Shown here: positions 4,122-48,110 of the stretch, piece by piece
How positions within the stretch are numbered: position 1 is the stretch's first letter
Layout of the letters: each line of letters begins with the position of its first letter
Program-made: the position numbers and the translations under genes
Assembly: GCF_009914755.1 (NCBI RefSeq)
Contig: NC_060938.1
Strand: one strand, 5' to 3'
Origin: the human T2T-CHM13v2.0 reference genome, Homo sapiens
DNA: 64,000 nt
Notes under the pieces: model-generated
Seen by the model: only the letters and a program-made list of their open reading frames with translations
Database searches by the model: none
What the model was told of the DNA's origin: nothing

Positions 4122-4171
<50 letters not shown>

Positions 4172-6725: not shown

Positions 6726-6749
6726 AACTAGGCAGTTTCTAAGCTTTGT

Positions 6750-18312: not shown

Positions 18313-19958
18313 TACGGCTGCCCATGGCAATGGTCAGCGTGTGATGGAGAGAGCGATATTCTACCGGGGCAGTTGCTGGCAGGGAGCTCTGATGAGGCAG
18401 GTGGGCCGTGATGGAAGGATACGGTGTATACCAGCACGTTAATTTTCAGAGAAGAGCGTCGTTAGTGCTTTCCTCTCTGCAAGCCCCCTGCCCTGCCTGT
18501 ATCTGCAAGGCCTATTGGTTCTCCACGGAGCCGGACTCTGACTCGCTCCAGCACAAAATGCCTAAGCCCTCGGAGGTGCTCCGTATTGTGAGGGCCACCA
18601 GGCCCCGCCAGGCGGTGGGGGTGAGCCGTGAAAGGAGGAGAGGGCCCAGCCTCTCAAAACCTGTTTAAGACAACATGAAAAACCACTCACGTACTTTCAA
18701 ATAGGTGAAATTTCACTTTCAGCTTTATTTACCTGAGAATGAATTTCAGTCTGAAGAGGCCTTTATGTCGTTGGAGCCGAAGCACCCGAGATATAAGCAA
18801 TTTTCAACGAGAGTACTACACATTTGTCTTTATAACAATTTGTGTGTAACAGCTTTTATGCAAATGACACTAAAGTGGCACCTTTTTTTCTAAATTGGAC
18901 ATTTTTATGGTTATAATTTTCTTCTGTAATAACAGCAAAAAAAAAATGGCTGTCCCAGTGGAGTTGAACATTTCATCTTTGAGCACTGTCTTGTGAAGTT
19001 GGAATGACAAGTTTCTTTCATTTGCGCCAAGAATGTCAAAAAAGTGTTCTTTGTCTTCCTTGTCTTAGTTTTCAGGGGTGGTTAAACTTCAGGTGTCATC
19101 GTCCCCCATCAGCAACCCTGAGTAATCAGAATGGTCTCAGAAAATCCCCACACAGCTTCCAGGCCCCCCAAAAACTGCCTGCTCTTTCTCCTTCCAAGCC
19201 GAGCAGCATAAATTAACTTGGTTAGATTTCAGTTTCAACACGTTGTTGGGTCTTTTACATTCATGCCCACTTTTCCCTAAGTCAGACAGGTGACTTTTAT
19301 AGACAATGAGGTTTAATTGACTCCAGTACAATGGAATTTATATACAGTATTCCAGGCAACCATCCCGAGATACTCATAGAATAATTCACGTTATTGTTGC
19401 TTAATCGACCGAACATTTTTGCAGAAACAACAGGAGACGGTGTGTGTTTCAAACAATGACTTAAATATATCCAAGGACTCGGTGAAACAATATCTATAAT
19501 TTGTGGCAGTGGAGGCCTTTGGGATGGACGAAACTAGAAGGTCTCAGCAAGCGCACATGGGAGGAGTAGAGAGAGGTGCCGGGAAGAACTGGAAAGAACA
19601 AAGGCCTGTGCCCGGCTTGACCTTGGAGGTGTTTCTCCCTCTTTCTACGCTCTGATTCCCGAACGGTTCCCCTTCACCTTCATTCTAAAGTCAATAGTTA
19701 AAAGGGGTTGTTTTAATACATTCAGAGAAACTTGCTGTAGTATTAACTCCTGATTTTTTTTGAATTTGGAGATAACAAGAGAAGAAGAAATTGGGAGGCA
19801 AGAGACCAAAAACTGTGTCTATTGTGTGGTGACAAATTGATGTGCATCATGGAGGAAAGAGACTCCAGGACATGTAGACTTGAACTCAAACATTGAGAAC
19901 TTGCTAGGTATTTGACACGGAGGAAGTAACCCACCCTTTCTAAACTTTTGCCTACCCG

Positions 19959-20312
19959 TGTCTTAGTCCTTTTGGGCTGCTGTAAGAAGATACCTTAGAC
20001 TAAGACATTTATACACAGCAGTCATTTATCGATCTCAGTGCTGAAGGCCAGGGAGTCCAAGGTCAAAGCACTGGCAGACTGGGTGTCTGGTGAGGACCTG
20101 TTTCTCATAGAGGGTGCCTTCTGTGTGTCCTCACATGGTGGAAGAGACAAGGAAGCTCCATCAAGCCTCTTTTATGAGCATGGATCCCGTTAATGAAGAT
20201 AGGCTTCATGACTTAATCACCTCCTAAAGGCCCCACCTTTTAGTACTATCACATTGGGGATTAAATTTCAACATATGAATTTTGGGGTGACACAAACATT
20301 GGGTCCAAAGCA
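19959..20312 (-). mobile_element. MLT1A-type MaLR solo LTR inserted in a MIR
   Basis: tgtcttagtcc...gtgtctggtgagg...gacttaatcacctcctaaaggcccc...caaagca; TSD acccg/accca; MIR halves on both flanks. Confidence 0.88.
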
Positions 20313-27776: not shown

Positions 27777-28224
27777 TGAAAGGCAAATTGCAAAAACAGC
27801 TCCCATTCTCACCCCTGCCTGCGCCCACACCCTTTGCTACATAACTTTGAAACACCTTTCCACTCTAACTTAGACTCGGCAATGTCATCCTTGGCCAATA
27901 AGATGTTAGCAGATGTGATGCAAGCAGAAGTTTGCAAAGCCCTGATGCTACTGGGCTTGCCCTGTCTCTTGCATCTCTGCTCTTGCCATGAGAGCATGTC
28001 CAGGCCAGCTCCCTGAAAAATGAGACTAGAGCCCACTCATCCCATTTCCACCCCCCCCCAACAACTTTGTGGACTTTTAGACACTTGATAAGGCCAGGTG
28101 AGATGAGCAGAGCTAACAAGCCAGCCCCCCAAGGTCCAGTAACAATCATTTTCTTCCTGTTTTATATAACTGAGCTATTATTGTTTATTAAACAGCATTA
28201 TTATGGCTGTAGGTGACCAATACA
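27777..28224 (+). mobile_element. MLT1 (H-like) MaLR solo LTR inserted in an L2
   Basis: ttggccaataagatgttagcagatgtgatgcaagcaga...cagcattatta..gtgaccaataca; TSD gtccc/ctccc. Confidence 0.75.
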
Positions 28225-28802: not shown

Positions 28803-28985
28803 AAACATTCTCTTGCTAGCCTTGCAATTTAGTGATAGACTGTGGATTTCTCAATTGAACTTTTGTGTCTCGGTATGATATTTTCTGTTTAAATTTCAGA
28901 TTTGCTGCAAATACATCCACACAAAGGAGGCACTGAACACATAGGTAGATGTGTGCTCTGTTTTAGACTTTCTCCTTAAAAAAAT

Positions 28986-29040
28986 TATATATGTATATAT
29001 ATAGAGAGAGACACACACACATACACACATATACACACAT
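28986..29040. repeat. Compound (TA)n(GA)n(CA)n microsatellite
   Basis: Read directly. Confidence 0.8.
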
Positions 29041-29092
29041 TTGTATTTGAATTAGTCAGGATGGAAGGAGGTAAGTCACTTCAACCTTTAAG

Positions 29093-29268
29093 CCCCTTTG
29101 ACATTCACAAGGTGCTAAAAGTCAGCTGGGGTCTCAGCTCTGACGAATTTGCATCTCTTTGAATATGACGCTTGAAAAACCCCAGCGATAGATTAAATTT
29201 TGCCAAGGAGAAAATGAGAGAGAGGCTTCCATCTCTCAGGTCTGCTGGGAGGATCTTTATGGTTGATT
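29093..29268. promoter_or_regulatory. Putative enhancer module, copy A of a duplicated non-coding element
   Basis: Aligns to 44942-45125; shares CCTTTGACA, CAGCTG, ATTTGCAT, CTTTGAA, TGACG and GATTAAAT motifs. Confidence 0.5.
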
Positions 29269-30431
29269 TACTTTTTTAAAATAAATGTTTCTTTATGTGT
29301 TTCCCTCAGTTCCTGCCCAGGCTGACTCTATCATACAAGCTGTAACTTCTGCCAGTCCTATCAGCCAGCAAACAGTAAGTCAACCTGGCTCTGAATACGA
29401 GGTGAAGGGATATTTCAATCTAAGCTGCATATACCTTCTGTGTTTTCTGATTAAAATTTGCAAGCAAACCTTGGAATAAACTCTACCTGACACGACTTCT
29501 AAAATAATTTACGCTTTTTGCAAACCTCGAATGTAGGGATTGATTTTAGTTCCTGTCACTATATTTCAGATCATCAAAAATGGATCAGGGCTTTTAAGTG
29601 AATTTAATGACCAAAGATGTTTCCTTTAAAAAAAGAAATCACTGAGGTTAGAAGACAAAATTCCTTATCTAAAGCCACAGAAAAGTGTTCTTTTTTTTTC
29701 TTTTAAAAGTGGCCCATATTGATCATCAAAAATTTGAAAAATTCAGAAATAAAAAGAAGAAAAAATCACTCTTAAACAAATCAGAGATTCATTCTTATGC
29801 TTATTTTAACACATAAGCATATTTTTTCCAGTCTTATCTGTGTCTTTGTGTTTTTTGATACAGGTAAGCATAGAAAGCAAATACAACTTTGTTTCCTGAT
29901 CTTTTCATCTCTTGCAATAACGATGGTGATAATTAATTAGAATGAAGACGGTAACATCCAAGCACAATTGATGAGGAAATTTTTAAGCTCTATGCACAAA
30001 TTGCCTTGCTTTGTCATCAAAACAACCCTACAGGATGGGTTTTTATTATTTTCCTTATTTTTAAGTGTTAAGCAATTTGTCCAAGGTCACATAATCAGAA
30101 TGTTGGAAAACAGTGACTCAGATCAAGGCAATCTTATCCCTAAAAGCTATGCTCTAAATCACTATGCTATGCTATAACATATGCTTTTTAAACATTATCA
30201 TAAAGTCACTTTATATGTTTATATGTGATTTTTAGTGATTGTATAGTATACCAGGAGGCTCCATTTACCATGTATCTATATTTCATTCTATGCAAATATG
30301 CCTTAGGGAGGTGTGTAAGGTGGAAACCCTGTACTATAACATTATATAAATGACCTAATATCTTTTAAAGTCATTTCTTTATTTCTGGACATCAAGTGTT
30401 ATTGTTTATTTGTTCTTCCAATCACACTTTT

Positions 30432-30640
30432 GGTAGAGTTAAAAGAGCACTAAATATCTCATCAGATAGACCTGGGTTTGGATCCCAACTCTGCAACTTA
30501 CTACTGGTGTTTTCTTAGAGAAGCACCTTAATCTGTCTATATCTCAGGAAAGATAGGGTGTTGCAAAAATTAAATAAGATGTCATGGGTGTTAACTGTTT
30601 AGCACAGTTGCTGACACATGGGGAGCGGCTAATATCTAGT
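30432..30640 (+). mobile_element. MIR SINE
   Basis: agacctgggtttggatcccaactctgcaacttacta...ttagcacagttgctgacaca. Confidence 0.7.
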
Positions 30641-30929
30641 AATCCTTTTCATTATTAATCATTATTTATGACAGCTCTAATGTTTTTAGCAATATTGTCA
30701 ATTATGTGACCATAAATTATCTGATTCAATCTTCACATCAATGCAATAAAATAAGCATTATTTATTGTCCTTGATAGATAGAACAATGAGGCTCCCACAC
30801 GTCCAGCGATTTTCCCAGGTGAGGTCTGCCTCGGTTCCGGGGAATCTGATTTCGGAGGCTACAGTCTGAGGTTCTTTGCTGGGAACTGAGGTCCCATCCC
30901 AAGTGCCTTAATGACTGCCAAGGAGTTTA

Positions 30930-31525
30930 AGGGTAAAAGGGAGAACTAAAGAAACTTTAAGTAGGGAGTGGGTGAGATTGTCTGTCCAAGATCTGTCTGC
31001 TGTAGCTTATGACTTGAAGAAAGAGTAAGAATGAGAACTAATTATAGGGCTCTTATTGGAATTTAGGTAAGAGATGAAGTAAATATGAAAGAATGACAAT
31101 GAAGTTGGAAAGAAGTGAATGGTTCCAAGAATTATGTTGGAGATAGAACTTGGAGGATTTAATGCCATGAAGGAGACAGGGAAGAAGGGACAATAACGTC
31201 CAGGTCTTTGTTTAAGGGATGGTGGGTAAAACCAATAGATTCATCACACAGAAAAAAGAATGGTCAGAGGAAGATGGCCAGTTAAATTTTGGATAAATTG
31301 ACATTAGGTTCTTAATAGATACCCAGATGAAACTGACCAGGTTGCAGTTGAATGTAGATGTATGAAGCCCAAAAACAGAAAGCAAATTAGTGATCTGGAT
31401 TTGTGTGCTTCTATTGACAGTGGTTGGGGATGTGGAACTACATAGGTGTGTCTAGGGAGAATGTGAAAAGAAGGGAACTGAGAATAGAATATAAGGAAAA
31501 AGGTCAGTTAAAGGATGAGCAGAGG
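30930..31525 (-). mobile_element. L2 LINE fragment
   Basis: aggtaagagatga...ggagatagaa...aaattttgga...cagttgaatgtag...ctagggaga pattern. Confidence 0.55.
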
Positions 31526-31534
31526 CTATGCTGT

Positions 31535-31900
31535 ACATTAGTCAGGATGGGTTAGGCTGTGCTGAGGTAACAAACAAAGCACAATATCTGAGTGGACTGG
31601 CACAATAGACTCTTATTTCTTCCTGTGCAAAATGTAATGATGATTGGTGGGGGCTCTTCTCCGTCTCTCTCCATCTTGGGATGCAATCCTCTTAATAATT
31701 GGCTTCCAGAGCCCCAAGAGAGGGAAAGAGCATATACACAGACTCTTAACTGCTTTATTTCAAAGAGATACATATCACTTGTGCTGATGTTCCATTAGCT
31801 GCAGTAAGTGCAGGCCATGCCCTGACCATAAAGGAGAGGCTGGGAAGGATTGTGGGTGCAGGAAGAAGACATGACACGATAATTGAACACATAGCATCGT
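31535..31900 (-). mobile_element. Old MLT1 (J/K/L-type) MaLR LTR
   Basis: ttagtcaggatgggttaggctgtgctgaggtaacaaac...catatcacttgtgct...ccattagc. Confidence 0.65.
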
Positions 31901-34468
31901 CTTCATCTCCAACTCAGGTGGATTCCCAAATTCAGTATGAATTGTAAGCCTCTATTCAAGCACAAGAAGTAAGTGTTGATGTCATAGCTCAGGTTGGTAT
32001 GCCTTGAGGTGTGACGGGTGCTGTGCATTTCTGCTCTTGTGGGGAGAGATGAGCAAGATACCAGACAGGACAGAAGCTGGTAGAACTGTCCTAGCTCTAG
32101 AGGCTTTGCACACAGGTCCAACATAGTCTACAGGAGTGTTGGAAACTTTTTCCAGGGAAAGTCGTCAGTAGAGCCCAGCAGTCTAGGCCACAATTAAGCT
32201 CAAAATAAGAATTGTAATTCTTACCAATTGATCCTGATGTAGCAAAACTCTAGAGCAAGCCAAACAGTTCCAGGATCACTAAGGAATCAGAGAGCAGGAC
32301 ATGGAGATGAAGCCTGGAGCTCATTTGTCCTGAAAGGCGGAATCTTACTTCAGTAAGTATCCACTGATAATTCCAACCAACTCAGACTGGGGACTTGTGC
32401 AGTGCAGGCTTTGAACATCAGTCACAGGGGCCCAAGGGGTGATATTTGTCCTGCTTTCATCAGGACTGGATTGAGTTTTGAGCAAGGAAGAACTTTGAGG
32501 CTGAAGGAGACTCCAAGTGAGAGGGCGTGGGAAAGTTTCCACGGGCACATTCTTGATCTTCCTGCATCTCAGCTTTGGTTCCTTCTGGTCTCTGTTGCTG
32601 ACGATTTATGTCCTAATCCTTTAGGCACTTATTCCCCACCCTCTCTGGGTGCTGGTTTCCTGATTCCCGAGTGGGTAGAAAACAGTCATGTAGGTGATCT
32701 GTGAGGTCCCTGACCCTTTTAAATCTACTAATCTATAATTAATTGAAATATTGTAAAATGCAGCCCACATTAATGTATGCTGTTAGGCAAGCTGTTATTT
32801 TCATTAATCATAGACAGCTCTTCCCCACACTCCCAGTTAATGGGCACCGACTGCAGGTTTCAAAATTCATTTACAGGGGGCACTTGGAAGGGGGATGCTG
32901 TGTCCAAATAAAACTTCTCTTGAAGTTTAATTGCAATTCACTGCCGAGTGAGGCAGAGCCGTTTCCAAGTAAGAGCAATTCTCTAATGCATGCCGAGTTT
33001 TAAAATAAAAGTTAATACTGCTCATAACCGTGGCTGATGATACTAGGAAAACACAATTGCTTGAAGCATTTGAAGGTAAAGTATTTATTCTCCTTGCTCC
33101 AGCAGAGAAACACCTCATCGGAGCATTTGCAGATTCTGTTTCTCCTGCCTGCAGAAAGGGTGGGTGTGGCCAAGTTCATCTCCAGCTTCGGAAAGGCTTG
33201 GTGCCAGAAGCCCTCACTTTGCCCTTCTCAAGTGGGCTGTAAGGGTAACATATTTATGATAAACAAATATTCTTAATTCCCTTTTCCCCGCATTTCTCCC
33301 ATCACTCCCATTCACCCAATTCCAGGCCACTCTGTTTTTAGGAAGACCATGTTGCACCCTGGACCTCACTCTCTTGCACTTTGCGTTAGCCGGTTATGCC
33401 TGAGCAAACTCTCCTGGAGGAAGCTGGAAGCCAGGTTCTAGCAGAGGCTTGTACAGAAGAGGAAAGTCCTTAGAAGAAAGAGAGAAGAACAAAAGACAAA
33501 TTCCTTAAAGAAAGAGAGAAGAACTAAAGGATACAAGGGCAATCGGAACTGGTAACCTAAGGAAGTGCATAGTGAGGCAGGAATGGGCACAGCACTTCAG
33601 AACTTGCAAGGTCCTTCCCACCCTCCACTCCCAGCCAGCTCCTCCCCACCCCATGTGGCCTGAAGGGCTGGGATGAGGAAGGAAGATACAAGACTGCGGG
33701 AGTTACATGACTTGCTGTAAGCCACCCATTTACTCCTTGAAAGGTCTGAGCTTGCAATTCAAGGTCTTCACTGTACAGGCAGCCAATCCCCATTGCACTC
33801 ATATTCCCATCATTCCTCCCTCCACTCCCCTGCTCGGAGGCTTCCTCCCTCAGTGGCTTGTGCAGCGCCTGCCTTGGCTACCACCCTATGGCATTGCTCA
33901 CATCTCCTCTGCTCTCTTCCTAGTAATGTAACTAGCTGTCTGTTTCTATTTGCTGGGAACTCTGAGGGGTGTAACAATCTTTAATCATCAGAACAACTTT
34001 ACGAAGACCACCCTGAAGTGCAGAAGGATAATGCTCCTGGCTTGTATCACAGAGCTAGTAAACGACCAAACCAGAATTTGGTCTGAATCCTGAGATCGTT
34101 CTCTTACTTGTAAGCTACACACTTTCATGTACTGAAAGAGAGGTAGCTTTGGTTTGTGACTTTATAAAGCAAGGACCCATCCCATTTGTACAAATGGTAC
34201 AAATTTAGGTACCATTTTTCTGGAGATGCAGGATTTGGACCAGATGGGGAGAGGAAAGAGCAAGCAAGGTTCTGTGGTAAGAACATATAACAGGTACACA
34301 GGTCACAAGACATGGAGCAGGGCAGGTGTGAAGCACAGGGGAACATGAGAGGAAAGCCAAGCTCTGGAGGTGAGGGGCCCTGGGAAACCCATGGAGAAGG
34401 AACGCAGAGATGTACAGCACCATGAAACTTGGAGGGTCCCAAAGAGTGTTCAGTGAAGAGCTGTAGAC

Positions 34469-34625
34469 TAGAAGGAAGAGATGGAAGAAGGGAGAAAAGG
34501 AAGGAAAAAGGAAAGGAATGAAAGAGGGAGGAAGGAAGGAGGAAAGAGGGAGGAAGGAAGGAGGAAGGGACAGAGAGAATAAAGAATGAAGGGAGGAAAG
34601 GATGGAAGAACGAAAGAAAGCAAAA
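34469..34625. repeat. GA-rich polypurine low-complexity tract ((GGAA)n-like)
   Basis: Almost all A/G over ~155 bp. Confidence 0.85.
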
Positions 34626-35027
34626 GGTGGTAATCTTGTGCCTCATGTTTATACTCAGGTGAGAGTAGAAATTTTCAGAGACATGAAGCTCATCATTGAC
34701 TATAAATCTGATTTCCTAGGAAAACTAAAGGTTTTTTTTGTGTGTTTGTTTTTTGAGACAAGTGACACAAAATTCCATCAGAAAAAGGGTAGGGTAGCAT
34801 GTGCCTGCAGTCATTCAAGTCATTTATCTGATTCTTAGTTCCATGTCCCCTGGGTTTGCTGGAGAGGGAGAAGGCAGCAACAGAGACAGCGTGGTGGAGT
34901 GAGGTGAGCATCAGGAGAAAGCTATCTGGGCTCTCTTTTCTGATCTCTACCATCCGTGCATCCTTCCCTGAGCAAGACCTGACAGCAGACCTCTTAGAGG
35001 TTCAAGCACATCATCTGTATAAGAGGG

Positions 35028-35446
35028 TGATACAGTTTGGATATTTATCTGCTCTAAATCTCATCTTTAAATGTTATCCCCAATGTTAGAGGCAAGACCT
35101 GGCAGGAGGTGTTTGGATCTTGGGGACGGATCCCTCATGAATGGCTTGGATCCATTTTTGCAGTAATGAGTGAGGTCTTGCTCTACCAGTTCATGAGAGA
35201 TCCGTTTGTGTAAAAGAGTGTGGTACCTCTCCCATCTCTCCTGCATCCCCTGTCACCATGTGACATGCCAGCTCCCCATCACCTTCCACCATGATTATAA
35301 GCTTCCTGAGGCCTCACCAGAAGTTAAGCAGATGCTGGTGCTATGCTTGTACAGCCTGCAGAACTGTGAGCCAAATAAACCTCTTTTCTTTATAAATTAC
35401 CCAGCCCCAGGCATTTCTTTATGACAATGCAAAATAGATTAATACA
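35028..35446 (+). mobile_element. MSTB-like MaLR solo LTR
   Basis: tgatacagtttggata...ggatccctcatgaatggct...cagcctgcagaactgtgagccaaataaacctc...taataca; TSD gaggg/aaggg. Confidence 0.9.
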
Positions 35447-37327
35447 AAGGGACCTCAGTGCCCTTGGTGATGAAGTGCAGAATCCTGGACGAGACTATTC
35501 CTGAGAGCCAGAAGGAAGGGTATTACCTCTCTCCACAGTTTCCAGGGCCTTTACATACACATTTCCATGCTGCTCCTTAGAACAGCTCTGGGGTTTTGGC
35601 TGGTGAGGGCTCATTATACCTATGGTGGTGATGTCGTCAGTGTGTGTCACTGAGACTCAACTGGAGAAGTGAGTTTCCCAAGAGCACACTCAGAAGAACA
35701 GAGCCAGGGCCAAGACTCACATCTTCTGCCTTCTTTATATGATGTTGCCTCTGCAAAACTCATCCTGTGAAGGCAATTCCAATCCCTCCCCACCCTGGGT
35801 TTTAATTTATAAGACATCCTATATGTAAATGGGTCATTCCAAACATCCCTTTTGGCCTATTCCTTTACTTACAAACTATGCCTCCAAGTCCCAAATGGTG
35901 CCAATTCTCAAGGAGAGAAATTTACTCATTATATTTAGAATTTTGAATGAACATTTCACACAGAAACCTGGCTGAAAACAAATATTTCACTTGCCCATAA
36001 TGCAAAACAAAGCTTGGGTTTAAAAATAAACACAGCACTGAAATGACAATTATATTGACGAGAATACCATAAACAAGCCCAGATCCTGATCAGATGCCTC
36101 TCACATGGTGTGCCTACCTTTAACATGTTGGTGTTATACTTTGTCTCCCTATTTAATTAAAACTGTGTACCTAACAAGGGCCATATTGTTCAAGGAGTTT
36201 GTTCTTGCACTTGGCTTTCTATGCAGCCATCAAAACAGCCATGTTTCAAGTTGTATTCCCTGCCAGCTTTGCTAGATTTTGTATTTGCACTTGCAGAGTT
36301 TTTTTTTCTTTTTCTCTTTCAACTTTTATATGGGAACAAATACTTAACCCAGGTCCACCTTCTGAAATCTCATTCTCATCAGAAATTCACCACGTGGGTA
36401 GATTTTTGCATAGCACCTATTTTAGGGGCTCTGCTGTTTCTATTCTGACTGCTCTTGAATTTTTCAACTGTCACTCAGATTTGCCATAGTTCCCCCTTGC
36501 CGTTTCATTAATCAAACACTTCTCATCATGGCGCTCAAGGCCTTTCTTGACAAGACTCTAGCCTGTACCTTTCACAAAAGCATCTCACACACTGTCTATT
36601 AGCAAACATTTAGTCATTTATCCCACAATACATACCAAGTAGCTATTGCATTACAGATGCTGTTTTATTTGCTTCTACTATGTGCACCATGCTGAGAGAG
36701 ATGCATTCCTTCTTTCTCAAGATGTCCACAGTGCATATAGAGGTGAAAAGTGTCAGGTTGGCAGAAGGAAAGGATGAGTTTTTCATTCACAGGATATGGA
36801 AGACAGATTCTGGGAGGGGGTGGTGTTTGGATGGGACTTGAAGGAGGAGCCATTCAAAGACAGAGGTAAGATCAGTGGAACTTTCAAAGGGACAGAGTAT
36901 GAGTCCAGAGTACATGGACTGTTTTTGGAGAATGACCAGTGGTATAGTACATTTGGAACCTTAAAAGTATTTGGGGAAATACATTGATGAACCACACTTG
37001 AAGGGGATCTTGGGGACAGAGTGTGGAGGGCTATGAGTGCCACATCAGAAATTCAGAATATGATTTTATGAGTGCAGGAAGACAGACTGAACTTTGGAGT
37101 GTCCTACACACTAATCAATTCAGATCCCCCATTATTTTCCCAAACATGCCTGGCCTTGCCTGTTTCAGGGCTTCAGTCTTCCTCATCTCCTCTGCCTGGA
37201 ACAGTATTCTTGTATTTCTGCTCATGAATTTCCACCCATTTCTGTATCATCTGCGTATTCCATGCATGGAGTATTCCACGTATTCCATGCGTGGAGTTCT
37301 CCTGAAGTGCTTCTGCCTCCATGAACA

Positions 37328-37330
<3 letters not shown>

Positions 37331-37371
<41 letters not shown>
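37331..37371. repeat. (GT)20 microsatellite
   Basis: Perfect run. Confidence 0.97.
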
Positions 37372-37376
<5 letters not shown>

Positions 37377-38324
37377 CTTTTGCTTCCTGATATGATTGAA
37401 AGCAGATACAGGGAGTAAAAAACACAGAGATTCTTCAACATTTCTAGTCTGCTAATGGCACTCTTGATTGTTTTCACAAACTCATTCTGTTTTCTTGCCT
37501 TGTTTGAAATATATTCCCAGTGATTTTTAATATTTTTCATGAGCAGTAGACTAGTCACCTGTTCAGCCTGCCATCCTGAACTCATAACAAAAGTTCTTTA
37601 AATAGCTTGGAATCACCATTCTACTTTTCTCCCTCACATCACATTTTCCTAAAAAGGATAAAAGTCTTCACCTAACATACAATTAAGACAATACCAGTTT
37701 GTTTTTTTCCTTTCAATGTAGTGAGGTGACATTTCACAAAAACTACAAAAAATATCTAACTGTCCATTGACTTTCCTTGTCCTTCTCTCCCCAGGAAATT
37801 CCACAGTAACAAAGACAGAAAGCTACTCTCACTCTTTCTTTCTGCAGTTCAGGACCACTTTCTTTAGTTTGTGGCTGTTGATACACAGAACCTGGTATAT
37901 GGGAGAGGTCCAATTCATCCTTGTTGAATGAGTGACTATAGGAATTTGTTATCGAGCCCTGAATGTGAGTTGGTGTTGGTGATAGGGAAAGTCTCTTGCT
38001 CCCCTTTGTACTAGTGAATTGGGATTGTATTGGTGATTGAATGTTGGAACTCAGCATTGATCCTGCAGCTAATCTAAGGATGCTGGTGATATTGCAACTG
38101 CAGATACTACAGTACCACCAAACACACAGCAGCACCACCAAGCACTATCCCAGTTAATAGATCCTGTGGGACAACAGCCTATTTATAGCCTATTTCTAAT
38201 GAAGTCAGTTATGAAAAACATAAAAATAAAAATACTCTCTGAATCAAGTAGCAGGAGCAGACTTTCAAGACAAGATGCTGTTTCAGTTGCTTCTGCTTTA
38301 TTTGTTTGAAGATGCAATATTAAT

Positions 38325-38568
38325 AATGACCATTTATTTACTACCTACTATATACTACACACTGGGGTATATGCTTTGCATGGGTTATTGTATTTCAATC
38401 CCACCAAAAATTTAGGAAGCAGATACTGCAATTGTTTCCATTGTTACAGACGTGGACATCAAAATGTGGAGAGTTTAAATGGCTGGTCAAAGTCATGCAT
38501 CAAGTATCACAAAGAACAGGATCTCAGCCTCAGGCATTCTAACATGAGAGTTTGAGTTCTTAACCACT
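38325..38568 (-). mobile_element. MIR SINE
   Basis: ccatttatttactacctacta...gctttgcatgg...ttacagacgtggac...caaagtcatg...tcttaaccact. Confidence 0.7.
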
Positions 38569-40899
38569 GGCCCCCATGCCACCCCTGTGCTGCTCAAGGT
38601 ACCACCCAAAGGCTCAGGGTCAGAATTGCTTAAGCTGTGTATTCCATGGACTCTTTGCAGACCTGTTGGAGCTGAGACCCAAGCATCTAAGTTTTTAATG
38701 TTAGAGGAACAAGTGAATCGTATTCTCACCAAAGATTTGGAGCCACGGCCTTACCTCTTGAGAGCCCAGGATAAGGGGAATCATCGACCTGGACACGTCT
38801 TACAGCCAGGGAAGAGAGGTTTCCTTGAAGCCAGGGAAGAGAACAGTGCAGCTCTTTATGTCATGGGCAGGAGGATGGGCTGGGAGCTCCAGGTAAGAGC
38901 TTCTTTGCCAACAGTAAAGACTTCCCTGATTCCTAACCCAGGAATCTGGTGATGCCCCAGTTCTAGGTGGCAGAGGCTCAGATGACTACAATCTTCTGGA
39001 CTGTCCTCTATTTAAGTCATATGTGGTCTGGAAACAACTTTCTAGGCAAGAGCCAATGCTGAGGGTCTGGTCTGAAGCCCTCCCAGGCTTCTCGTCTTTG
39101 AAAGTGGTGCCTCCATATCTCACATCTGGCACATCCTCCAGCACCTTCAGAGAGAAGTCTTTGTGGGCTCTGCCTCTTTCCCAGCAGTGAGAGGTGGATG
39201 TGGAGGTGATTCTAGTCACAGGCTGGCTCACTGTGGCTGCCTGAGGCATGGTGTGCTCACTGCATCCAGGGTGGCAGCTGAGAGTCATTGGCCTCCACAA
39301 GTAGACAGTGAACTTAAAAAGGCAAGCTTGGTCTGGTTTTTCCACTGAACTTCCCCTTTGGGAAAATTAATCTTTCCCATCAATCAAGATTCTTTAACAG
39401 TTTTTAATGTCCTAATCACTCCTAGGTCTTTTTCTGACCTCCACCTTGTGGGCTTTATCAAGCTTATTAGGGCCTTTGGAAATGTCTTTTTCTCCCCCTT
39501 CAACTTAAAACCTCAAGATTAGCCTCCAGATCTTCTGCTTTTTGAAATTCCGTTCAATACAGAAAATATTTAGAGAATACCATGCCAGACTCTTATTAAG
39601 ACACAGATCTTGTCACAAGAGCAATCATGTTCTAACTGAGAATGGGCAAAATCTCTGAAACCATGAGCTAGCCTAGAAGAATAAGCAAAACATTGCAGGA
39701 AAACAGATGAGGCATTTATTTTATCAAGAGAGGGTTCTTAGTGAGTTGTGATCCCAATTGCATGAGACATCATTTTAGATAGCATTTAATGTTAGCTTTG
39801 TGTCATATTGCCACTTCCCTTACCGTACGCATTTTCCAGAAATCTAGAATGCTCCCTTTAGGTTGTAAAATTAACAGAATGAAGATAATACAGCCAGACT
39901 GTGGACTATTTCAAGGCAGTTACTGTGCCTTACTCCTTGTCCTGTTCCTGGACTAAACTCAGAGCTTCAAGGTATCAGACAAGTGAATGAAGAAGTGAGG
40001 ATGGAATCCTTCCTATGATCGTAAATGACCCTTAATATTTGCAGTATATTTTCCAAGTTTCAGAATCTTATCACATACTCTAGCATGTTTTATTCTTGTA
40101 CATATTCTGTGAATAAGAAAGTGAGGTATCATTTTTATAATGAAATTCAGCTTTCACCAGCCTAAATGCAGAGACCTGGAAGAGGCCAGGTTTGGACTTG
40201 ATCTCTGATCTGCCTGGCTTTTGATTCTACACAGATTCCCCTATATCACCTGAGGAATTAGAGTTGAGTATTATTATTACTATAACTGAATATTTTTCAT
40301 GGATTATTAATCTTTTTTCCTGAGTTGCAATTCATGGATTATTAGTCTTTTTACTATTTGTGATAATTAGCATATGGTAAAAGCAAAAGAATGTTCAGAC
40401 AAAATGACTTCACTTGATTCTAATGTTTGATTTGAGAATTTATGTTTGGTGAGTGATGATGTTCATTTCGTTGGAATTTCAGAGCCAATAGGCATGGCTG
40501 ATCATATTAACACCCTCCCCTCTTGACTTCCTGCTTATCACAGGCTACTGTCATACTCCTTTGTCACCGTGGTTTCTGCACTTCAGGATTCTTCTGTGAA
40601 TCCTTCTCTTTTTTATCTAAAAGGTGGTCCTGCTTAGGTCTTGATCTTCAGCCCCTTCTCTATGCCCTTTCCCTATTCCATTTCATCCAACTCTCTTGGC
40701 TTATTTACATTGTTAAGCCCATGGAGTCTCAATTTTTATCTCTAGTATGAACTTTAGTCCGTCATATCCAAATGCTTACTTGGAATCTCACAGACCTTCT
40801 TATTTCATTCAGTAAGTATGCACTCATTACTTACTACATATTTGGTACTCTTCCAGGCATTGAGAATACAGCAAGGAAAAGACTTAAGGTAACTTATCC

Positions 40900-41832
40900 A
40901 TCCATAACTTATTAAAGTGGAACTTCATTTTTCATCTGTGAAACCTGTTCTCTGGTTTGTCTTAACTTAATAAATGAAGTGCCATTCATCCAGTGTTCTA
41001 GATGAAAGCCTGGGAGTTGCCACAATTCTTTCATTTCTTTGACTTCTCAAATCCAGTCCATCAACAAGTTCTGTCAGTCCTAATCTTAACATTACTCTCA
41101 AGTTCTTCCCCTTCTCTCCATGTCTGTTGCAACTACAACTAGTCCACGAAGATCACCATCGTCTCTTATCCAGATGACTGCAATAGTCTCCTGACTTCCT
41201 GTCTTGGTGCTTCTGTCCCTTTTGCACACCACAGGAAGAGTGACCTTGAAGTATGTCACTGGACCACACCATTCCCTGATGAAAACCACTGATGCCTTTT
41301 CTTTGTATTTGGGAAACAATTCAAACTGTTAGCATGGCCTTCCCATATGTCTTCTGGGCAATCTGACCCCTGGGCGCATCTCCAAACTCATCTCACATAA
41401 TTCCTTCATCATCTACCACCCCCTAGTCACATTAGTATGCATACTGGTCCTTGAATACACCAATGCTCTTTCACATTTCAGAGTCTTCCCATACACCATT
41501 CCCTCTGCCTGGAATATCCCTTTTTCTTCTGTTTGTTGCTTGCTTCTTTTTCAACTTTTGAGCTGAGCTTAATGATCTCCTCAGAGAGGGCTTCTTTGAT
41601 TGTTCTTTTTTTTTTCTGTTCCAATACTTTATTCTTTATAGAATTTAGCACAACTCATGATCATTTTACTGATATTTGTGGTTTAGGTTTTTAAAAATAT
41701 CTTTTTCTACTAAAATATAAGCCCATTACAGGTAGACTTTGTGTTATCTTGTTCATCGGTTTTATGCCTAGTGATTAATCCAATGCCTGATATGTAGCAG
41801 GCCCACAATAAACACTTCTTGATTGAATAAAC
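40900..41832 (+). mobile_element. L2 LINE 3' portion (upstream pieces from ~40520)
   Basis: ccattcatccag...atccagtccatcaacaagttctgtc...gcaatagtctcctgact...ccctctgcctggaat...gcctgatatgtagcaggc..caataaa..ttgattgaat. Confidence 0.8.
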
Positions 41833-44800
41833 GATTATTTTGCCACATGAAAGACTAACAACTGAGATTTTGCTTAAATTTCATCAAATATCTAAGGCAA
41901 CTTATTGATTTTTTTCTGAGGAAAACATAAATAATAACTGGGCTCAGTGACATTTTTAATAGTCATGAAATAATTACAGAAAAGTCTTCATCTAAGCATA
42001 CAGTCAATAAGTGTTAATATTGTCTCTCTTCCAGACCAGGGTGTCACATGAAGAGATGTTTAGGGAGCTACTTTATATGGTTTCTGAGATTGCATGTAAT
42101 GACATTTATCATTTGCCCATGCAAATGTGATTTAATCTTAGTCGGTGATCCTTTATCAGTCCCTCCTCTGTGCGAGATTCCACGGGCAAAAGTTGAATAT
42201 ATGAGTCTTGGAGGAGCATCCAACCTGCAGAAAGGGACCACGACGATTTCAGACCTAACTCAAGGGAGATGATAAGAATGTAGCAGTCTTTGGTACAGAT
42301 ATGGAAACATATATATGTTTTGATAACACAGAAAAAAGAGATTGAATTTTCCCCTAGGAAAAGAGGGACAGTAATGGCATTTTTGTTGTGTCATGGGGAT
42401 GAAATAATATCAGGATGAGAAAAGGGGAGAAGGGAAACCAAAAGAAGCCGGATGCACTGGCATCTACGTCACAGATTGAGAAGCATGTTCCATATCTTTT
42501 CCAACTCCATAATCCTGTGGGCCAATAGTACAGGGATTTCTAATGTTTTGTGATTTTTGTTGTTGTCTGTTTACTTGTTTTTACCAAGGGAATTAAAAAT
42601 CAGAGGATCAGTGAGTTTTCCTAAGGACACTCGACTCCTAGCAGTGAGAGGTCTTCAATCACGGCTTGTGGATCTAGGCTTCTGAACCTAGCTCTGTGCT
42701 AGCCTGTCCCATGCAGATGTTGAATTAAACGGGTGGCTTCAGATCCCCCTTCACTTTTCTACTCCCTCCCACCAGTCTGAGAAACACTCTGTGATGATTG
42801 ATTTCCTCGCAGAATGTGGGTCCCAAATAGCCAATAGTGTCACCTGTCAACAAATTTCCCAAACTTTAAGGGGCAAAGTTTTAACTTTTTAAACATTCTC
42901 AAAATCAGAGAAAATGTCTACAACTCCTACATGCTGGGCCCGCTCAGCTTACACAATGTAGTGTGGACTCTGCAGTAACTGGTTATTTCACAAAGCCATG
43001 GGCTTCTGCTCACCTTCCCTTCCAGAGTGCTCTGTACGCTGCCAGAACCCTTTCTCTGGAATGGAATCATTTAAGGCTGTTGAAGGCTTCTCTCTCCTAA
43101 CTGGCTGGTAACCAAATGTTGGCAAGATGACAGCCATCTAATGCAGTGCCCAGGGTCTCAGAGAGGAGAGGTGGGAGCAAGGATAACATCTAAGGCTGCT
43201 CATTATTGCAAGCACCTAGTATTGAAGGAGGCCATCACTTGGATCTGGAACTAATGCTTTTTGTTGCAACATATTGTGCTGGCGCTAGGAGGAGGCTGGC
43301 ACTAGGCGAGAAAGCATAACGATAAGGTGGATGCCAAGTGCTTCTGTGAAGATGAGACAGATCCCCGTTTCATAGAACTGTCTTAATCAAAGAACCTCAA
43401 GAGCCCGCCCCTCCTCAATATACACATTCTGTCCCATGTATTATTCTAATCCTCACTCAAACCACCCAACCACCTCATACCTATGTACACACACCCACTT
43501 CCCACTAAACTTCCTGATGGCAAGAGCAAGGACTAGAGAGGGCAAGGACATTCAGGGCCCGCTAATATAAATGTAACTATCTAATAGATCAATTCCAGAA
43601 AGATAACAGGGCGCAGGCTTTGAGAGGCTGAGAAGAATTGAATTTCCTTGTCTAACAGAAGATCCGGCTCTTTCTCTTGTCTACTAAAAAAGGCTGGGCA
43701 TTAGCACGCCAGGTTCTCAGAGAACTCGCCAGCAGAGAGGCATCAGGTGGACTCTGGAGAAGGTCAGACCTGTGACCAGTGAGTTATGGGCACCCAAGAG
43801 ATGGCTGAGATTTGAGTTTACATCACTGCCTCCTCTGCTAGTGTGACTGCATCCTCCTTCCATCATCAAAACCCTCGTTTAACCTTGGCCTTGAATTCAG
43901 GCCAGCTACATGCAATGGTGTGTGCTAGCTGTGCTATGAGGAAGTAGATCCCTGCGGTGGTGGTGAGGAAAGACTAAGGTACATGATTCTGAGGCAAGCT
44001 GGGGGATGGAGAAACCAGCAAGATCAAAAATAAAGAGGAAGAAGAGGCTGTGAGAGCCTGGGCATCCGATGCTCTTGACTCAGAAAACCATAAAAGTCTT
44101 GGAGAAGATTCCAGTGCTCCACAGAGCTCTGGGGTCCCAAGGTTGAGATGTAGGCTGAAGGGAGGGGGCTGAGGAAGCTGTGCAATCCATCTGCAAGAAA
44201 CTGGACACAAGGCCCAGCCCAGCTCAGCAGGGCTACAGACTCCACAAAGGCCTTGGGAGCCAAGCAGGGGGCAGGTGCTTGTGGTATACCCTGGGCCGCC
44301 GTCAAGCTTCCAAGTCTCCCAGGAGGCCAGTGCTGGCCACCTCCCAGCCTCTCTCTAGCCCATCAGTACCCCAACCTTCCAGTGTCTTCTGCTTGGTCTC
44401 CTGCCTCATTTACTTAACCCTTCAAGCTGAATTGGTTGTCCTGGGCTCTGAACCCAGGCAACCAACAGAGCAGAGCATTAGCTTTCGTGTTAATGGCAAA
44501 TGGGGGAAGAAGTATCCAGAGGAAGATCTGAATAGTTTCCATGAACTTAGAAAAATAACCAAACCTAACAAAAGACTGAGCTCTGTGCATTCTACAATGC
44601 AATCGCTCATTCATTCATTTATCCCAACTCACTCATCTCTTCAGCCTCACCCCCCTCTCACACACGTGCTCCCTTACTGAGCATTGCAGTCCAGCCTGAC
44701 ATCTCAATGGAGTTGTTTTTCTGTTGTCTTTCCTCTTTCACCCCAACCCCTATTTGTTCCTTTCCTCCTCTCCTTTCCCTCCCAATGGCAGTTTTTTTTT

Positions 44801-44941
44801 TTTAATTTCAGAAGAAAACTTACAAAAATTGTTGAAACATTCACTACAAAGCAAAACCTTATTTTTTTTTTAACATTCAGCAGAGAGCTCCTCGCCCCCA
44901 ACCCCACAAAAAACCGGCAGCCATGTCAAAGACACTGCCTC

Positions 44942-45125
44942 CCCCTTTGACATTCATGCAGTGCTCTGAGTCAGCTGGGGTCTCCGCTCTGACAAATTTG
45001 CATCTCTTTGAATGTGACGCTTGAAAAAAGCCGGAGCCGCTAGATTAAATTTTTTTTTCCGTCGAGAAAATGAGAAAAGCCTCTATCTCTCGGCAGAGTC
45101 TACTGGGAAGATCTTTATTCTGATT
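44942..45125. promoter_or_regulatory. Putative enhancer module, copy B of a duplicated non-coding element (CpG-richer copy)
   Basis: Aligns to 29093-29268; 7 CpG within the element and raised CpG density over 44890-45290. Confidence 0.5.
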
Positions 45126-45772
45126 CTTGTTAGAATTGTTTATCACCCTGACAGGCCAGACTCGGACGAGATAAAGGCTCCGCTGCATCACGGGGCCTGA
45201 CAGTGGTAGGACATGCAGAAAAATGAAAGAAGCTGGAGAAAATATTATTAATAGATGCCGACTTGCTTTGCCTGCACGGCACGTCAGGGAAGGGAGAGGG
45301 GAGCCATGGCTTGATTGCAGGCCTATGAAGTTCTGTCCAAAAAAGAAGCTATTTTTCATTAAGTGATAGAAGGGCCTTTTTCATGTTCTTTCCTTAGGAG
45401 CTGATAACTTATGCAGGGTTATTCTAACCCTGCTGATTTCTGTCAGGGGAAGAAAACTCCTGAAAGATGGCTTTGACATGTCCTTTTCAGGGAAAGAAGG
45501 CTGGTTTGACAGACACACAAGCAGTCGGGAGGCCTGGCCTGGATAGGCTCAAGGTCCCCAGATTCTGGTCGGGCATGTGTTCTTGTGTCTAGGATAGATG
45601 GGGAAGGGGAAAGAAAGACTAAGCCAAGAGCCCCTCAGCCTCGAGGGGGGCTCTCTGCCTTATGAATGTAAGGCTTCCTCAAGTGGGTCTGTGTGTATGA
45701 CTCCCTTCCTGGAAATACACCCTTGGTGCTTCCATAAGTTGATGCCTTCCCAGCCACATTGCCGTTTACTGC

Positions 45773-46166
45773 TGTATCAGTCTGCTTGGGATGCCAAAGC
45801 AAAATACCACACACTGGATGGCTGCAACAAGAGAAATGTATATTCTCGCAATTATGGAGGCTGAAAGTCCAAGATCAAGGTTCTGGTAGGGTTGGTTTCT
45901 CTGGAGGCCTCAGTCCTTGGCTTACAAATGGCTTTCTCCTTGCTGTGTCCTCACGGGCCCTTCTTCTGTGCACGCACACTCTTCTCATCTCTTTCTCTTC
46001 TTATAAGGGCACCAGTCCAATTGGGTTACAGCCTCAGCCTCATGAACACATTTAACTTTACTTGCCTTCTTACAGGTCATTCCTCCAAATAAAGTTACAC
46101 TCTGAGCAACTAGGGCTTAGGACTTCAAAGTATTAATTTTGGGGAGACACAAATGAGTCCATAAGA
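45773..46166 (-). mobile_element. MLT1B-like MaLR solo LTR
   Basis: tgtatcagtc...aaataccacacactgg...ggaggctgaaagtccaagatcaagg...cttcttataagggcaccagtc...ggggagacaca. Confidence 0.85.
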
Positions 46167-46885
46167 ATGATGCAGCAATTTCTTCCATCTTTGTTTTTCT
46201 GGATTCAGGCAGCAGAATCTGAGAGTGGGACCTGATGCCAAGGCAGTCCTGCAGTGTCCCTAAGGAAAAGCTTATTCTTAGGGCTGGAAGCTATGCAGAT
46301 TTGTCTCAGTCAGCTGGCCCCTGGCACCAAGGAGAAGGCCCTTGTGAGGAAGGTGGGGAAGGTGGCCTCTGACAATCCTTTTTCCCTGATGGGACAGCTG
46401 TAGTGGGAGAAGAGCCATGGCATGCCTCAGCACTTGGACTGGTAGCTGAGTGACCCAAGGCAAGTTGCTTAACCCTCTGCGCATTGGTTTCCTCTCCTGT
46501 AGAGGTGGTAGCATTTCTGTTGATGCCTAAACTGAATGGGGACTGAATGAGATAAGGGGACGTGATAGCTCCTCATCTAAGCTGGAGGATCGTGTAGATT
46601 ATAAAGGATAATTACAATTGCTGAGGGGTGGGCACATGGTGGGTGTTTCCACCTGTCAGGCAGCACTGCCATGGGTAACCCAGTGAGTCTGGGCATGTGA
46701 ACTTTGTCCAACTTTGGTCTCAGCCATGAATCTGTAGGGGATTTATCTCCAGAGTTTTGTGGGAACTGGTGAATTTTCTCTGTAATCTGAGTCCTGATGC
46801 TGAATCTCCTCCTTCCCCAACCCAGAAGCCAGAAGGCTGGCTGAGGGCTCTGTGACAACTCAGTCGGACACCCACTAACACCAGG

Positions 46886-47384: not shown

Positions 47385-47590
47385 ACTTATGTAGACATAG
47401 GTGACACATTTGCCTTTTCTGTGTCATTTACTACTTTAGAACATGACTTAATTTTTCAAACATGACTTAACTTTTTCAAGCTTCAGCGTCCTTGTTTCTC
47501 AAATGGGTAATACTGGAGACAGCTGTATTAATAAAGTGTATACATTGTTGGCATGACTCCTGAAGTTAATAAGTGCTCAGTTTGCAGTTG
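47385..47590 (+). mobile_element. MIR SINE
   Basis: catgacttaactttttcaagcttcagcgtccttgtttctcaaatgggtaata...taagtgctcag. Confidence 0.55.
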
Positions 47591-47592
47591 TC

Positions 47593-47915
47593 ATGATGTT
47601 GTTGTTGCTGTTGACAACGGTGATGATAATGTTTGATGACGATGGTGATGGCGATGACAGCAATGATGGTGATAATGATGACAATGATGATAATGATGAT
47701 GATGGCAGTGATGATGGTGATGATGACCATGATGATGAAGAAGATGATGATGAAAGTGATGACAATGATGATGACGATGATGATGATAGTGACATGAGGA
47801 TGTTGGCAATAATGATAACAATGATGGTGGTGATGATGACAATGATGAAGGTAACGACTGATGATGATGATGGTGATAACAATGATGATGATGAGGATGG
47901 TGATGGTGAGGATGG
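47593..47915. repeat. Degenerate (GAT/GAC/GGT)n trinucleotide low-complexity tract
   Basis: ~320 bp of in-phase GAT-like triplets. Confidence 0.92.
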
Positions 47916-47919
47916 ACAT

Positions 47920-48110
47920 AGTTATTTGCTTGATAACTAACACATGCACAACACTGAAACGTGTGCTGGACAGTACCCTGGATCTTTCTGTGCTTTGTCT
48001 CATTTAATGCTCAACTTTAATGAGTAGGCATCCTTTTTATCCCCACTTTAACGATGAAAACCTTGATGTTCAAGAAAGGTCAATGAATTGTCCTGGGTCA
48101 TACAACCAGT
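47920..48110 (-). mobile_element. MIR SINE
   Basis: tctcatttaatgctcaac...atccccactttaacgatgaaaac...aggtcaatgaattgtcctgggtcatacaaccagtaag. Confidence 0.7.

What the first reader, a model, noticed from the sequence alone, without database searches (positions are those of the whole stretch)
29093..45125. Duplicated ~180-bp non-coding module (29093-29268 and 44942-45125) with a conserved TF-motif grammar: candidate paralogous or shadow enhancer pair
Seen: two same-orientation copies 15.85 kb apart. The first 87 bp align without gaps at 77/87. Similarity continues with small indels through tagattaaatttt, gagaaaatgag and gtct(g/a)ctggga(g/a)gatctttat, while the flanks are unrelated and there is no TSD, TIR or poly-A. 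Mismatches fall between motifs, not in them: both copies keep CCTTTGACA (TCF/LEF overlapping MEIS/TGIF), CAGCTG (E-box), ATTTGCAT (POU octamer) 2 bp from CTTTGAA (TCF/LEF), TGACG (CRE half-site, an intact CpG) and GATTAAAT (homeobox). Known: neutral old repeats in this window (MIR/L2) are far more decayed, and a recent segmental duplication would have similar flanks. Inference: an ancient duplicated enhancer under purifying selection, possibly an exapted, rare ancient repeat, acting redundantly on a distant developmental gene.
Basis: partly seen in the sequence, partly recalled or inferred. Interest (0 to 1): 0.8.

Follow-up and report, generated by a model that had tools for sequence, protein, structure and literature searches.

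The report
Two-copy non-coding module, function unproven
A 175-base stretch of non-coding human DNA really does occur twice, 16 kb apart and nowhere else in the genome, but similar small local duplicates lie nearby and nothing yet shows that it is an ancient or working enhancer pair.

Summary
Copy 1 (29093-29262) and copy 2 (44942-45120) lie on the + strand 15,849 bp apart. The first 87 nt match 77/87 without gaps, and the whole alignment matches 143/181 columns (85% of ungapped columns, 6 indels). Flanks are unrelated, and I found no TSD or TIR. Only these two copies turn up in the T2T genome, with a tool that detects 70-76% identical old repeats. It matches no Rfam family, shows no stable RNA fold, and is not coding.

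The interpretation (ancient, selected, redundant enhancers) could not be tested, because no vertebrate genomes or chromatin data were available. Its sequence-internal arguments are not diagnostic:
- The same gene desert holds three more genome-unique, same-strand, sharp-edged local pairs. Two are 93-96% identical and therefore young.
- The longest perfect run (19 nt) is no longer than random placement of the mismatches gives.
- The two halves do not differ significantly in substitutions.

In favour of function, copy 2 sits at the centre of a unique patch of 16 CpGs in 390 bp.

Best reading: a small local copy-and-paste duplication, probably from a regulatory element at copy 2, whose divergence fits neutral decay. 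Interest is low to moderate.

The parts
29093..29262 (+). Copy 1 of the module (170 nt), in a LINC02325 intron. It ends 47 nt before the 3' splice site of the exon at 29310-29374. Its flanks are AT-rich.
   Evidence: (D9). Model R1 scores it 156 bits. CpG o/e is 0.35 with 3 CpGs, and the flanks have 33-35% GC.
44942..45120 (+). Copy 2 of the module (179 nt). I take it as the probable source copy (inferred).
   Evidence: R1 scores it 171 bits. It holds 7 CpGs, o/e 0.78.
44893..45282 (.). CpG-retaining patch of unique DNA around copy 2: 16 CpGs in 390 bp, against a window-wide CpG o/e of 0.19. It is a candidate germline-hypomethylated regulatory element and extends beyond the duplicated part on both sides.
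   Evidence: 600-bp windows here hold 15-16 CpGs, against a mean of 5.1 and a 99th percentile of 16; 44300-45740 has no other match in the genome apart from copy 1.
29310..29374 (+). LINC02325 exon (hub annotation), with AG at 29308-29309 and GT at 29375-29376. It is context only and not part of the duplicated unit.
   Evidence: sequence. (no similarity downstream of the modules).
28975..29045 (.). (TA)n/(CA)n microsatellite about 47 nt upstream of copy 1. It is context only. The sub-threshold Rfam mir-297 match falls here.

Best explanation
The two stretches are a genuine, genome-unique pair made by a small local copy-and-paste duplication of a discrete ~175-bp piece of DNA. The piece has sharp junctions and no flanking sequence, target-site duplication or poly-A, which is the anatomy of a templated patch laid down during break repair or a replication template switch. 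The likely source is copy 2, which lies at the core of a larger, unique, CpG-retaining ~400-bp patch that is probably a germline-hypomethylated regulatory element. The likely derived copy is copy 1, which sits in AT-rich intronic DNA beside a microsatellite and 47 nt upstream of a LINC02325 exon. The divergence between the copies (85% identity in ungapped columns, 6 indels, half of them in A, T or GA runs) is what neutral decay would give after roughly early-primate time. Shown: the pair is real, has two copies only, has sharp edges, is non-coding, is not a known or stable RNA, and has comparable younger pairs nearby. Inferred: the mechanism, the direction (copy 2 to copy 1), the age, and any regulatory activity. 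Copy 1 carries the same octamer, E-box and TCF-like words, so it could act as a weaker sequence-similar partner, but nothing here requires that.
For: Two copies only. Either copy used as query finds just the pair (2 candidates, 2 scored). A 31-mer and a 33-mer core pattern with up to 3 mismatches each give 2 hits against 0 for the reversed control. The same tool recovers 70-76% identical old repeats from this window, so its sensitivity is adequate. No third copy appears in the window with the filter-free profile search: the next best hit is 10.6 bits and looks like chance. There were 0 hits in 240 kb of other sequence. Flanks score at shuffle level. No other collinear match lies at the ~15.8-kb offset. 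Recurrence of the process: a self-comparison of 304 kb (this window, three 60-kb stretches of the same desert, one 60-kb stretch of chr5) gave 5 in-sample-unique pairs. Four of them are same-strand pairs in the 244 kb of desert, and each was confirmed genome-unique by its own search. Their identities are 96%, 93%, 80% and 80%. All four have flanks without real similarity (a few 100-nt flank scores of the young pairs were marginally high, 5-16 of 300 shuffles). Neutral fit: 25 mismatches in 168 ungapped columns (JC K 0.166), and the longest perfect run of 19 is not unusual (14,677/20,000 shuffles reach it). The halves do not differ in substitutions (p 0.28). Source direction: the CpG patch extends beyond copy 2 on both sides and is unique DNA. 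A known mechanism with this anatomy exists: class 2 templated sequence insertions, with no TSD and no poly(A) and NHEJ-type junctions (PMC5110952, passages read).
Against: The 15.7-kb spacer is ten times that of the other three pairs (679-1434 bp), so pair A may not come from the same process. Mismatches are clustered: 5 runs for 10 mismatches in the first 87 nt (15/20,000 shuffles) and 16 runs for 25 overall (48/20,000). That pattern would also fit conserved binding blocks separated by free spacers. All 6 indel events fall outside the first 87 nt. The window is very poor in repeats: 5% masked by the hub's table, and 14% of bases hit anything in my 304-kb sample. This is typical of constrained regulatory deserts. 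The control is small (240 kb, 180 kb of it from the same desert), so I cannot say how common such pairs are genome-wide. The age rests on recalled substitution rates. No microhomology or empty site could be shown.
Confidence: 0.5

Rival explanations
1. An old (pre-mammalian or older) local duplication of an enhancer, with both copies kept by purifying selection while the neutral flanks decayed. The two now act as sequence-similar, partly redundant (shadow-type) enhancers on a distant developmental gene in the desert. From recall, not tested, the candidates are BCL11B or VRK1.
For: The pair is genome-unique and is not a repeat family. Flanks are at chance level, as expected if only the constrained core survived. 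Mismatches are clustered into blocks (15/20,000 and 48/20,000 shuffles). No indel falls in the first 87 nt. Copy 2 lies in a CpG-retaining unique patch. The desert is repeat-poor (hub table). The shared words read as octamer, E-box, TCF/SOX-like, CRE half-site and homeobox motifs; those names are recalled and no motif library was run.
Against: Young pairs (93-96% identity) with equally sharp edges lie in the same desert, so sharp edges are not evidence of age. The longest perfect run is not unusual. The halves do not differ in substitutions. Half of the indels lie in slippage-prone A, T or GA runs. Copy 1 shows no CpG retention, with o/e 0.35 in the copy and 0.27-0.33 in the flanks. Neither copy overlaps the two RefSeq functional enhancers in the window (hub table). 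No copy was found elsewhere in the genome, so there is none in a paralogous desert of the kind classical duplicated CNEs show.
Confidence: 0.3
2. Two surviving copies of a very low-copy ancient interspersed repeat of the exapted kind (families such as UCON, Eulor, MER121, LF-SINE and AmnSINE1; names recalled). They would have been inserted independently and kept because they were co-opted.
For: It is a discrete unit with sharp edges. Its size, about 175 nt, is SINE-like.
Against: Only 2 copies were found in 3.1 Gb, although the search finds 70% identical repeats. The two lie 16 kb apart on the same strand, which points to a local event rather than transposition. There is no tRNA-like head (0 genes in L001 and L003), no TIR or TSD, and no Rfam match on the modules.
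Confidence: 0.07
3. An old, largely decayed duplicate pair whose first ~87 nt were later homogenised by ectopic gene conversion, so that the pair looks younger or more conserved than it is.
For: Identity counting gap columns is higher in the first 87 nt (77/87) than in the rest (66/94; Fisher p 0.003).
Against: Without gap columns the difference disappears (66/81, p 0.28). Conversion between 175-nt tracts of about 80% identity, 16 kb apart, is expected to be rare (established knowledge, not tested).
Confidence: 0.04
4. A functional RNA gene or a protein-coding exon present in two copies.
For: None beyond the duplication itself.
Against: Rfam at E up to 1 finds nothing on either module; the 3 weak hits lie on the microsatellite and elsewhere. 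Fold z-scores are -0.06 and -0.31. The alignment fold has 1 compensatory pair out of 38. Every frame is broken by stops, and gap events of 1 to 4 columns shift the frame. Pfam matched 0 of 9 ORF translations at E up to 1.
Confidence: 0.02

Closest known systems
Class 2 templated sequence insertions and small dispersed duplications (patch repair of a double-strand break; PMC5110952, passages read)
   Same: A discrete short insert copied from elsewhere, with sharp junctions and no target-site duplication, poly(A) or terminal repeats. The result is a two-copy sequence.
   Different: The described cases are human polymorphisms templated from distant regions, often through RNA. Here the donor lies 16 kb away on the same strand, the event is fixed and old (about 85% identity), and neither junction microhomology nor an empty site could be examined.
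Duplicated conserved non-coding elements (dCNEs; described in PMC2781166 and PMC2020477, passages read; the original paper, PMC1457030, is not held)
   Same: Non-coding, non-repeat elements that occur in more than one copy with significant similarity, in a gene desert of the kind that surrounds developmental regulators.
   Different: dCNEs are defined by fish-mammal conservation and lie next to paralogous genes, because they were copied by whole-genome duplication. This pair lies within one locus, 15.8 kb apart, has no copy elsewhere in the genome, and its conservation is unknown.
Shadow or redundant enhancer pairs
   Same: Two candidate regulatory modules in one locus with the same set of factor-binding words, which could drive overlapping activity.
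   Different: Shadow enhancers are defined by activity, not sequence, and usually share no alignable sequence. No activity data exist here for either copy.
Exapted ancient repeat families (MER121, LF-SINE, AmnSINE1, UCON/Eulor; recalled)
   Same: Short non-coding units kept in more than one copy near developmental genes.
   Different: Those families have tens to thousands of dispersed copies, whereas only two neighbouring copies were found here.

Membership tests
Interspersed repeat family (MIR/L2/UCON/Eulor/MER-type) | Many dispersed copies in the genome | tested here: not met
   2 of 2 candidates are the pair itself, with either copy as query. Core patterns with up to 3 mismatches give 2 hits against 0 controls. 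The tool finds 70-76% identical repeats elsewhere in the window.
Interspersed repeat family (MIR/L2/UCON/Eulor/MER-type) | Structural hallmarks: TSD, TIR, poly-A tail, tRNA- or 5S-derived head | tested here: not met
   The longest word shared between the flanks is 5 nt or none, and TIR scores are 4-5. ARAGORN finds 0 genes. Rfam finds nothing on the modules.
Interspersed repeat family (MIR/L2/UCON/Eulor/MER-type) | Match to a curated consensus (Dfam/Repbase) | not testable with these tools
   No repeat library is on hand.
Duplicated CNEs (dCNE) | Conservation between mammals and fish or other distant vertebrates | not testable with these tools
   No vertebrate genomes are held. A scan of prokaryote contigs for the 31-mer core found 0 matches, as expected.
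Duplicated CNEs (dCNE) | Two or more non-coding, non-repeat copies with significant similarity | tested here: met
   179 columns, 79.9%, E 9e-34. The pair is non-coding and not a repeat.
Duplicated CNEs (dCNE) | Copies lie beside paralogous developmental genes at different loci | tested here: not met
   Both copies are in one locus, 15,849 bp apart, and no copy was found elsewhere in the genome.
Shadow/redundant enhancer pair | Both elements drive overlapping expression of the same target gene | not testable with these tools
   No chromatin, reporter or deletion data. Neither copy overlaps the RefSeq functional enhancers at 6675-7176 and 13601-14800 (hub table).
Templated patch insertion / small dispersed duplication | Discrete insert with sharp junctions and no flanking homology | tested here: met
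   Flank alignments score at shuffle level on both sides.
Templated patch insertion / small dispersed duplication | No TSD and no poly(A) | tested here: met
   for TSD. Sequence read for poly(A).
Templated patch insertion / small dispersed duplication | Empty site in an outgroup, or a polymorphism; junction microhomology or filler bases | not testable with these tools
   No outgroup genome is held. After a 2-nt mismatch the right junctions share TGATT, which is inconclusive.
Structured RNA gene | Rfam match, or stable and covarying secondary structure | tested here: not met

The most novel reading that the evidence does not exclude
Both copies are old, constrained and active. They would be a sequence-similar pair of redundant enhancers born by local duplication inside one regulatory desert, rather than by whole-genome duplication as for classical dCNEs. 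Pair B (3720-3845 / 5280-5402) would be a second example in the same window. This would mean that local copying of short modules is a way in which this desert's regulatory landscape grew.
Probability: 0.25. Interest if true: 0.6.

Novelty: new member of a known kind. Interest (0 to 1): 0.3.

Why it matters
If both copies proved conserved and active, the pair would be a clean natural case of a shadow enhancer born by local duplication. The two copies would still be alignable base by base, so it would be possible to ask which binding sites must be kept for redundancy. If the ordinary reading is right, the value is methodological. Short, sharp-edged, genome-unique local duplicates recur in this desert at a range of ages, so sharp edges and intact motif words in such a pair should not be read as evidence of selection without cross-species data.

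Tried and rejected
- **Larger duplication.** No other collinear match lies at the ~15.8-kb offset, and the flanks are at chance level.
- **Repeat family.** Genome searches and patterns find only the pair. The profile search of the window gives a next-best hit of 10.6 bits at 47418-47526 (-), about half identical, judged to be chance. There were 0 hits in 24 other loci.
- **RNA gene.** Rejected on Rfam, single-sequence folds, the alignment fold and the tRNA scan.
- **Coding exon or immunoglobulin-V-like promoter plus leader.** The octamer, E-box and TATA-like order prompted this idea from memory. The ORF lists show stops in all frames, and Pfam matched 0 of 9, so I dropped it.
- **CpG decay asymmetry as a clock.** On the optimised alignment only one clear CG-to-CA difference falls in each copy, and the other CpG differences are transversions or gaps. 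This is too few to use.
- **First half more constrained than second.** Significant only when gap columns are counted (p 0.003 against 0.28).
- **Prokaryote contigs.** A scan for a contaminating vertebrate orthologue found 0 matches.
- **Literature.** 10 papers mention LINC02325. From the listing, and the passages I read in two of them, they are cancer-signature and GWAS lists. A 17-nt core string is in 0 papers. None of these searches found the element in print.
Full report
**1. The observation.** Reading the two places and running the repeat finder (family D9) confirms two same-strand copies with a start-to-start spacing of 15,849 bp. The first 87 nt align without gaps at 77/87. Sensitive blastn extends the match to 29093-29260 / 44942-45118: 179 columns, 79.9%, E 9e-34. 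A gap-optimised global alignment of 29093-29262 with 44942-45120 gives 143 matches in 181 columns, 143/168 ungapped (85%), and 6 gap events covering 13 gap columns. One further TGACG in copy 1 reads TGACA in copy 2. The match is far beyond chance.

**2. Edges and surroundings.** Local alignment of 60, 120, 250 and 500 nt upstream and downstream of the two copies scores like shuffled sequence. The single low count, 20/500 shuffles for the 250-nt upstream window, comes from a T-rich run. No other match lies at the ~15.8-kb offset. There is no terminal inverted repeat and no target-site duplication. Copy 1 ends 47 nt before the AG of the annotated LINC02325 exon at 29310-29374 and lies about 47 nt after a TA/CA microsatellite. 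The exon itself is not part of the duplicated unit.

**3. Copy number.** With either copy as query, the search of the 3.1-Gb assembly returns only the pair (2 candidates, 2 scored). A 31-place and a 33-place core pattern with up to 3 mismatches each give 2 hits and 0 for the reversed control.
- The tool is sensitive enough. With 3-kb queries from this window it recovers an interspersed repeat at 45772-46167 (2,286 first-look candidates, matches at 70-78%) and an old repeat at 27785-28003 (70-77% over 110-200 nt).
- A sequence-only profile of the pair, run without filters over the window, finds no third copy. The next hit scores 10.6 bits, is roughly half identical, and was judged to be chance. 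It finds nothing in 240 kb of other fetched DNA.
- The module is therefore not a member of a detectable repeat family. I could not search Dfam.

**4. What it is not.** Rfam at E up to 1 gives 3 weak hits in the two 3-kb loci, none on the modules. The single-strand folds are no more stable than shuffles (z -0.06 and -0.31). The two-sequence consensus fold shows 1 compensatory pair in 38. No tRNA-like gene was found. All frames are broken by stops, and gap events of 1 to 4 columns shift the frame. 0 of 9 ORF translations match Pfam at E up to 1.

**5.
- The longest perfect run is 19 nt. Random placement of the 25 mismatches over the 168 ungapped columns gives a mean longest run of 22.6, and 14,677 of 20,000 shuffles reach 19. 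Finding intact motif words inside such runs is therefore expected.
- Substitution identity is 77/87 in the first part and 66/81 in the rest (Fisher p 0.28). Only when the 13 gap columns are counted does the difference become significant (p 0.003). Three of the six indels lie in A, T or GA runs that are prone to slippage.
- Mismatches are clustered: 5 runs for 10 mismatches (15/20,000 shuffles) and 16 runs for 25 (48/20,000). This fits free spacers between constrained blocks, but it fits multi-base mutation events equally well.
- Only two CpGs are shared.
- With K = 0.166 and recalled primate substitution rates, neutral decay would date the event to roughly early-primate time. This is an inference, not a measurement.

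**6. A control that changes the reading.** A self-comparison of the window finds exactly two in-window-unique pairs: the reported one and pair B (3720-3845 / 5280-5402, same strand, spacing 1,560, 127 columns at 80.3%). Pair B is also unique in the genome.
- I then fetched three 60-kb stretches of the same desert and one of chr5.
- In the 304-kb sample, 5 pairs are unique within the sample. They are the two in this window, two in the first desert stretch (227 nt at 96.5%, spacing 906; 92 nt at 93.5%, spacing 1,421), and one weak inverted pair on chr5 (79 columns, 74.7%), which I did not check further.
- A sixth pair, seen before the chr5 stretch was added, dropped out because it then matched elsewhere.
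- Both young desert pairs are unique in the genome, lie on the same strand, and have flanks without real similarity. A few of their 100-nt flank scores were marginally high, reached by only 5-16 of 300 shuffles.
- Short, discrete, sharp-edged local duplications therefore arise in this region as a mutational product, at about one per 60 kb of desert sampled, with identities from 96% down to 80%.
The reported pair can be an older member of the class. Its 15.7-kb spacer is, however, ten times larger than those of the other three pairs.

**7. Evidence for function.** Copy 2 lies in the middle of 16 CpGs within 390 bp (44893-45282). 600-bp windows there hold 15-16 CpGs, against a mean of 5.1 and a 99th percentile of 16 for the window. 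Only the spots at about 17.9-19.1 kb and 19.1-19.8 kb match or exceed that. The 1.44 kb around copy 2 has no other match in the genome apart from copy 1, so the patch is not a young transposon.
- CpG retention in unique DNA is what germline hypomethylation at a bound regulatory element would give (established knowledge; not measured here).
- The patch extends beyond the module on both sides, which is why I take copy 2 as the source in its native context.
- Copy 1 shows no such signal (CpG o/e 0.35, flanks 0.27-0.33, 33-35% GC).
- The window is repeat-poor (hub table; 14% of bases hit anything in my sample), as regulatory deserts are.
- The motif names (POU octamer, E-box, TCF/SOX-like, CRE half-site, homeobox) are recalled, and no motif library was run. 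The position of the window between VRK1 and BCL11B is also recalled and was not tested.

**8. Comparison with known kinds.**
- The anatomy matches class 2 templated sequence insertions: no TSD, no poly(A), break-repair junctions (PMC5110952, passages read). The difference is a nearby donor and an old, fixed event.
- It resembles duplicated CNEs in being a multi-copy, non-coding, non-repeat element in a desert. It fails their defining location beside paralogous genes, and its deep conservation could not be tested (PMC2781166 and PMC2020477, passages read; the original paper is not held).
- Shadow-enhancer status is defined by activity, which cannot be tested here.
- I found no paper on this element. 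The 10 papers that mention LINC02325 appear, from the listing and from passages read in two of them, to be expression-signature or GWAS lists. A 17-nt core string occurs in none.

**9. Verdict.** The enhancer-pair interpretation remains possible (I give it about 0.3), but the arguments offered for it are not diagnostic. The most economical reading (about 0.5) is a small local copy-and-paste duplication, probably from a regulatory element at copy 2, decaying at about the neutral rate. A cross-species alignment would settle the matter in minutes.

Noticed in passing
window 3720-3845 and 5280-5402 (+): A second genome-unique, same-strand local pair (pair B): 127 columns at 80.3%, 102/122 ungapped, spacing 1,560, flanks unrelated. 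It is about as diverged as the reported pair.
   Followed up: partly
L009:6417-6643 / L009:7323-7549, and L011:703-794 / L011:2124-2215 (same desert, 240-260 kb upstream of the window): Two young genome-unique direct local duplications (227 nt at 96.5% and 92 nt at 93.5%) with sharp edges and spacers of 679 and 1,329 nt. I used them as a control. How they arose is unexplained.
   Followed up: partly
window about 17900-19100 and 19100-19800: The densest CpG patches of the window, with up to 23 CpGs per 600 bp. The first contains a 78-nt palindrome at 18234-18311 that I recall as resembling the MADE1 mariner-derived MITE. I did not check whether the rest is unique DNA.
   Followed up: no
window 7758-7911: A self-complementary stretch of about 155 nt (160 columns at 71% against its own reverse complement). 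It is MITE-like, and from recall it resembles the MER53-type palindromic elements.
   Followed up: no
window 47625-47933: A degenerate GAT/GAC-rich minisatellite, with copies overlapping at 9- and 15-nt steps. It is complementary to an ATC run at 4114-4178 (D1 and I13-I24).
   Followed up: no
window 45772-46167: An old interspersed repeat about 650 nt downstream of copy 2, with more than 2,000 first-look candidates genome-wide at 70-78% identity. Related pieces lie at 4528-4873 and 19958-20300.
   Followed up: no
LINC02325 (gene-level, literature): One paper cites a Chinese Alzheimer GWAS signal, rs234434, assigned to LINC02325 with an unusually strong p-value (PMC11667495, passage read). Its position relative to the modules is unknown to me.
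   Followed up: no
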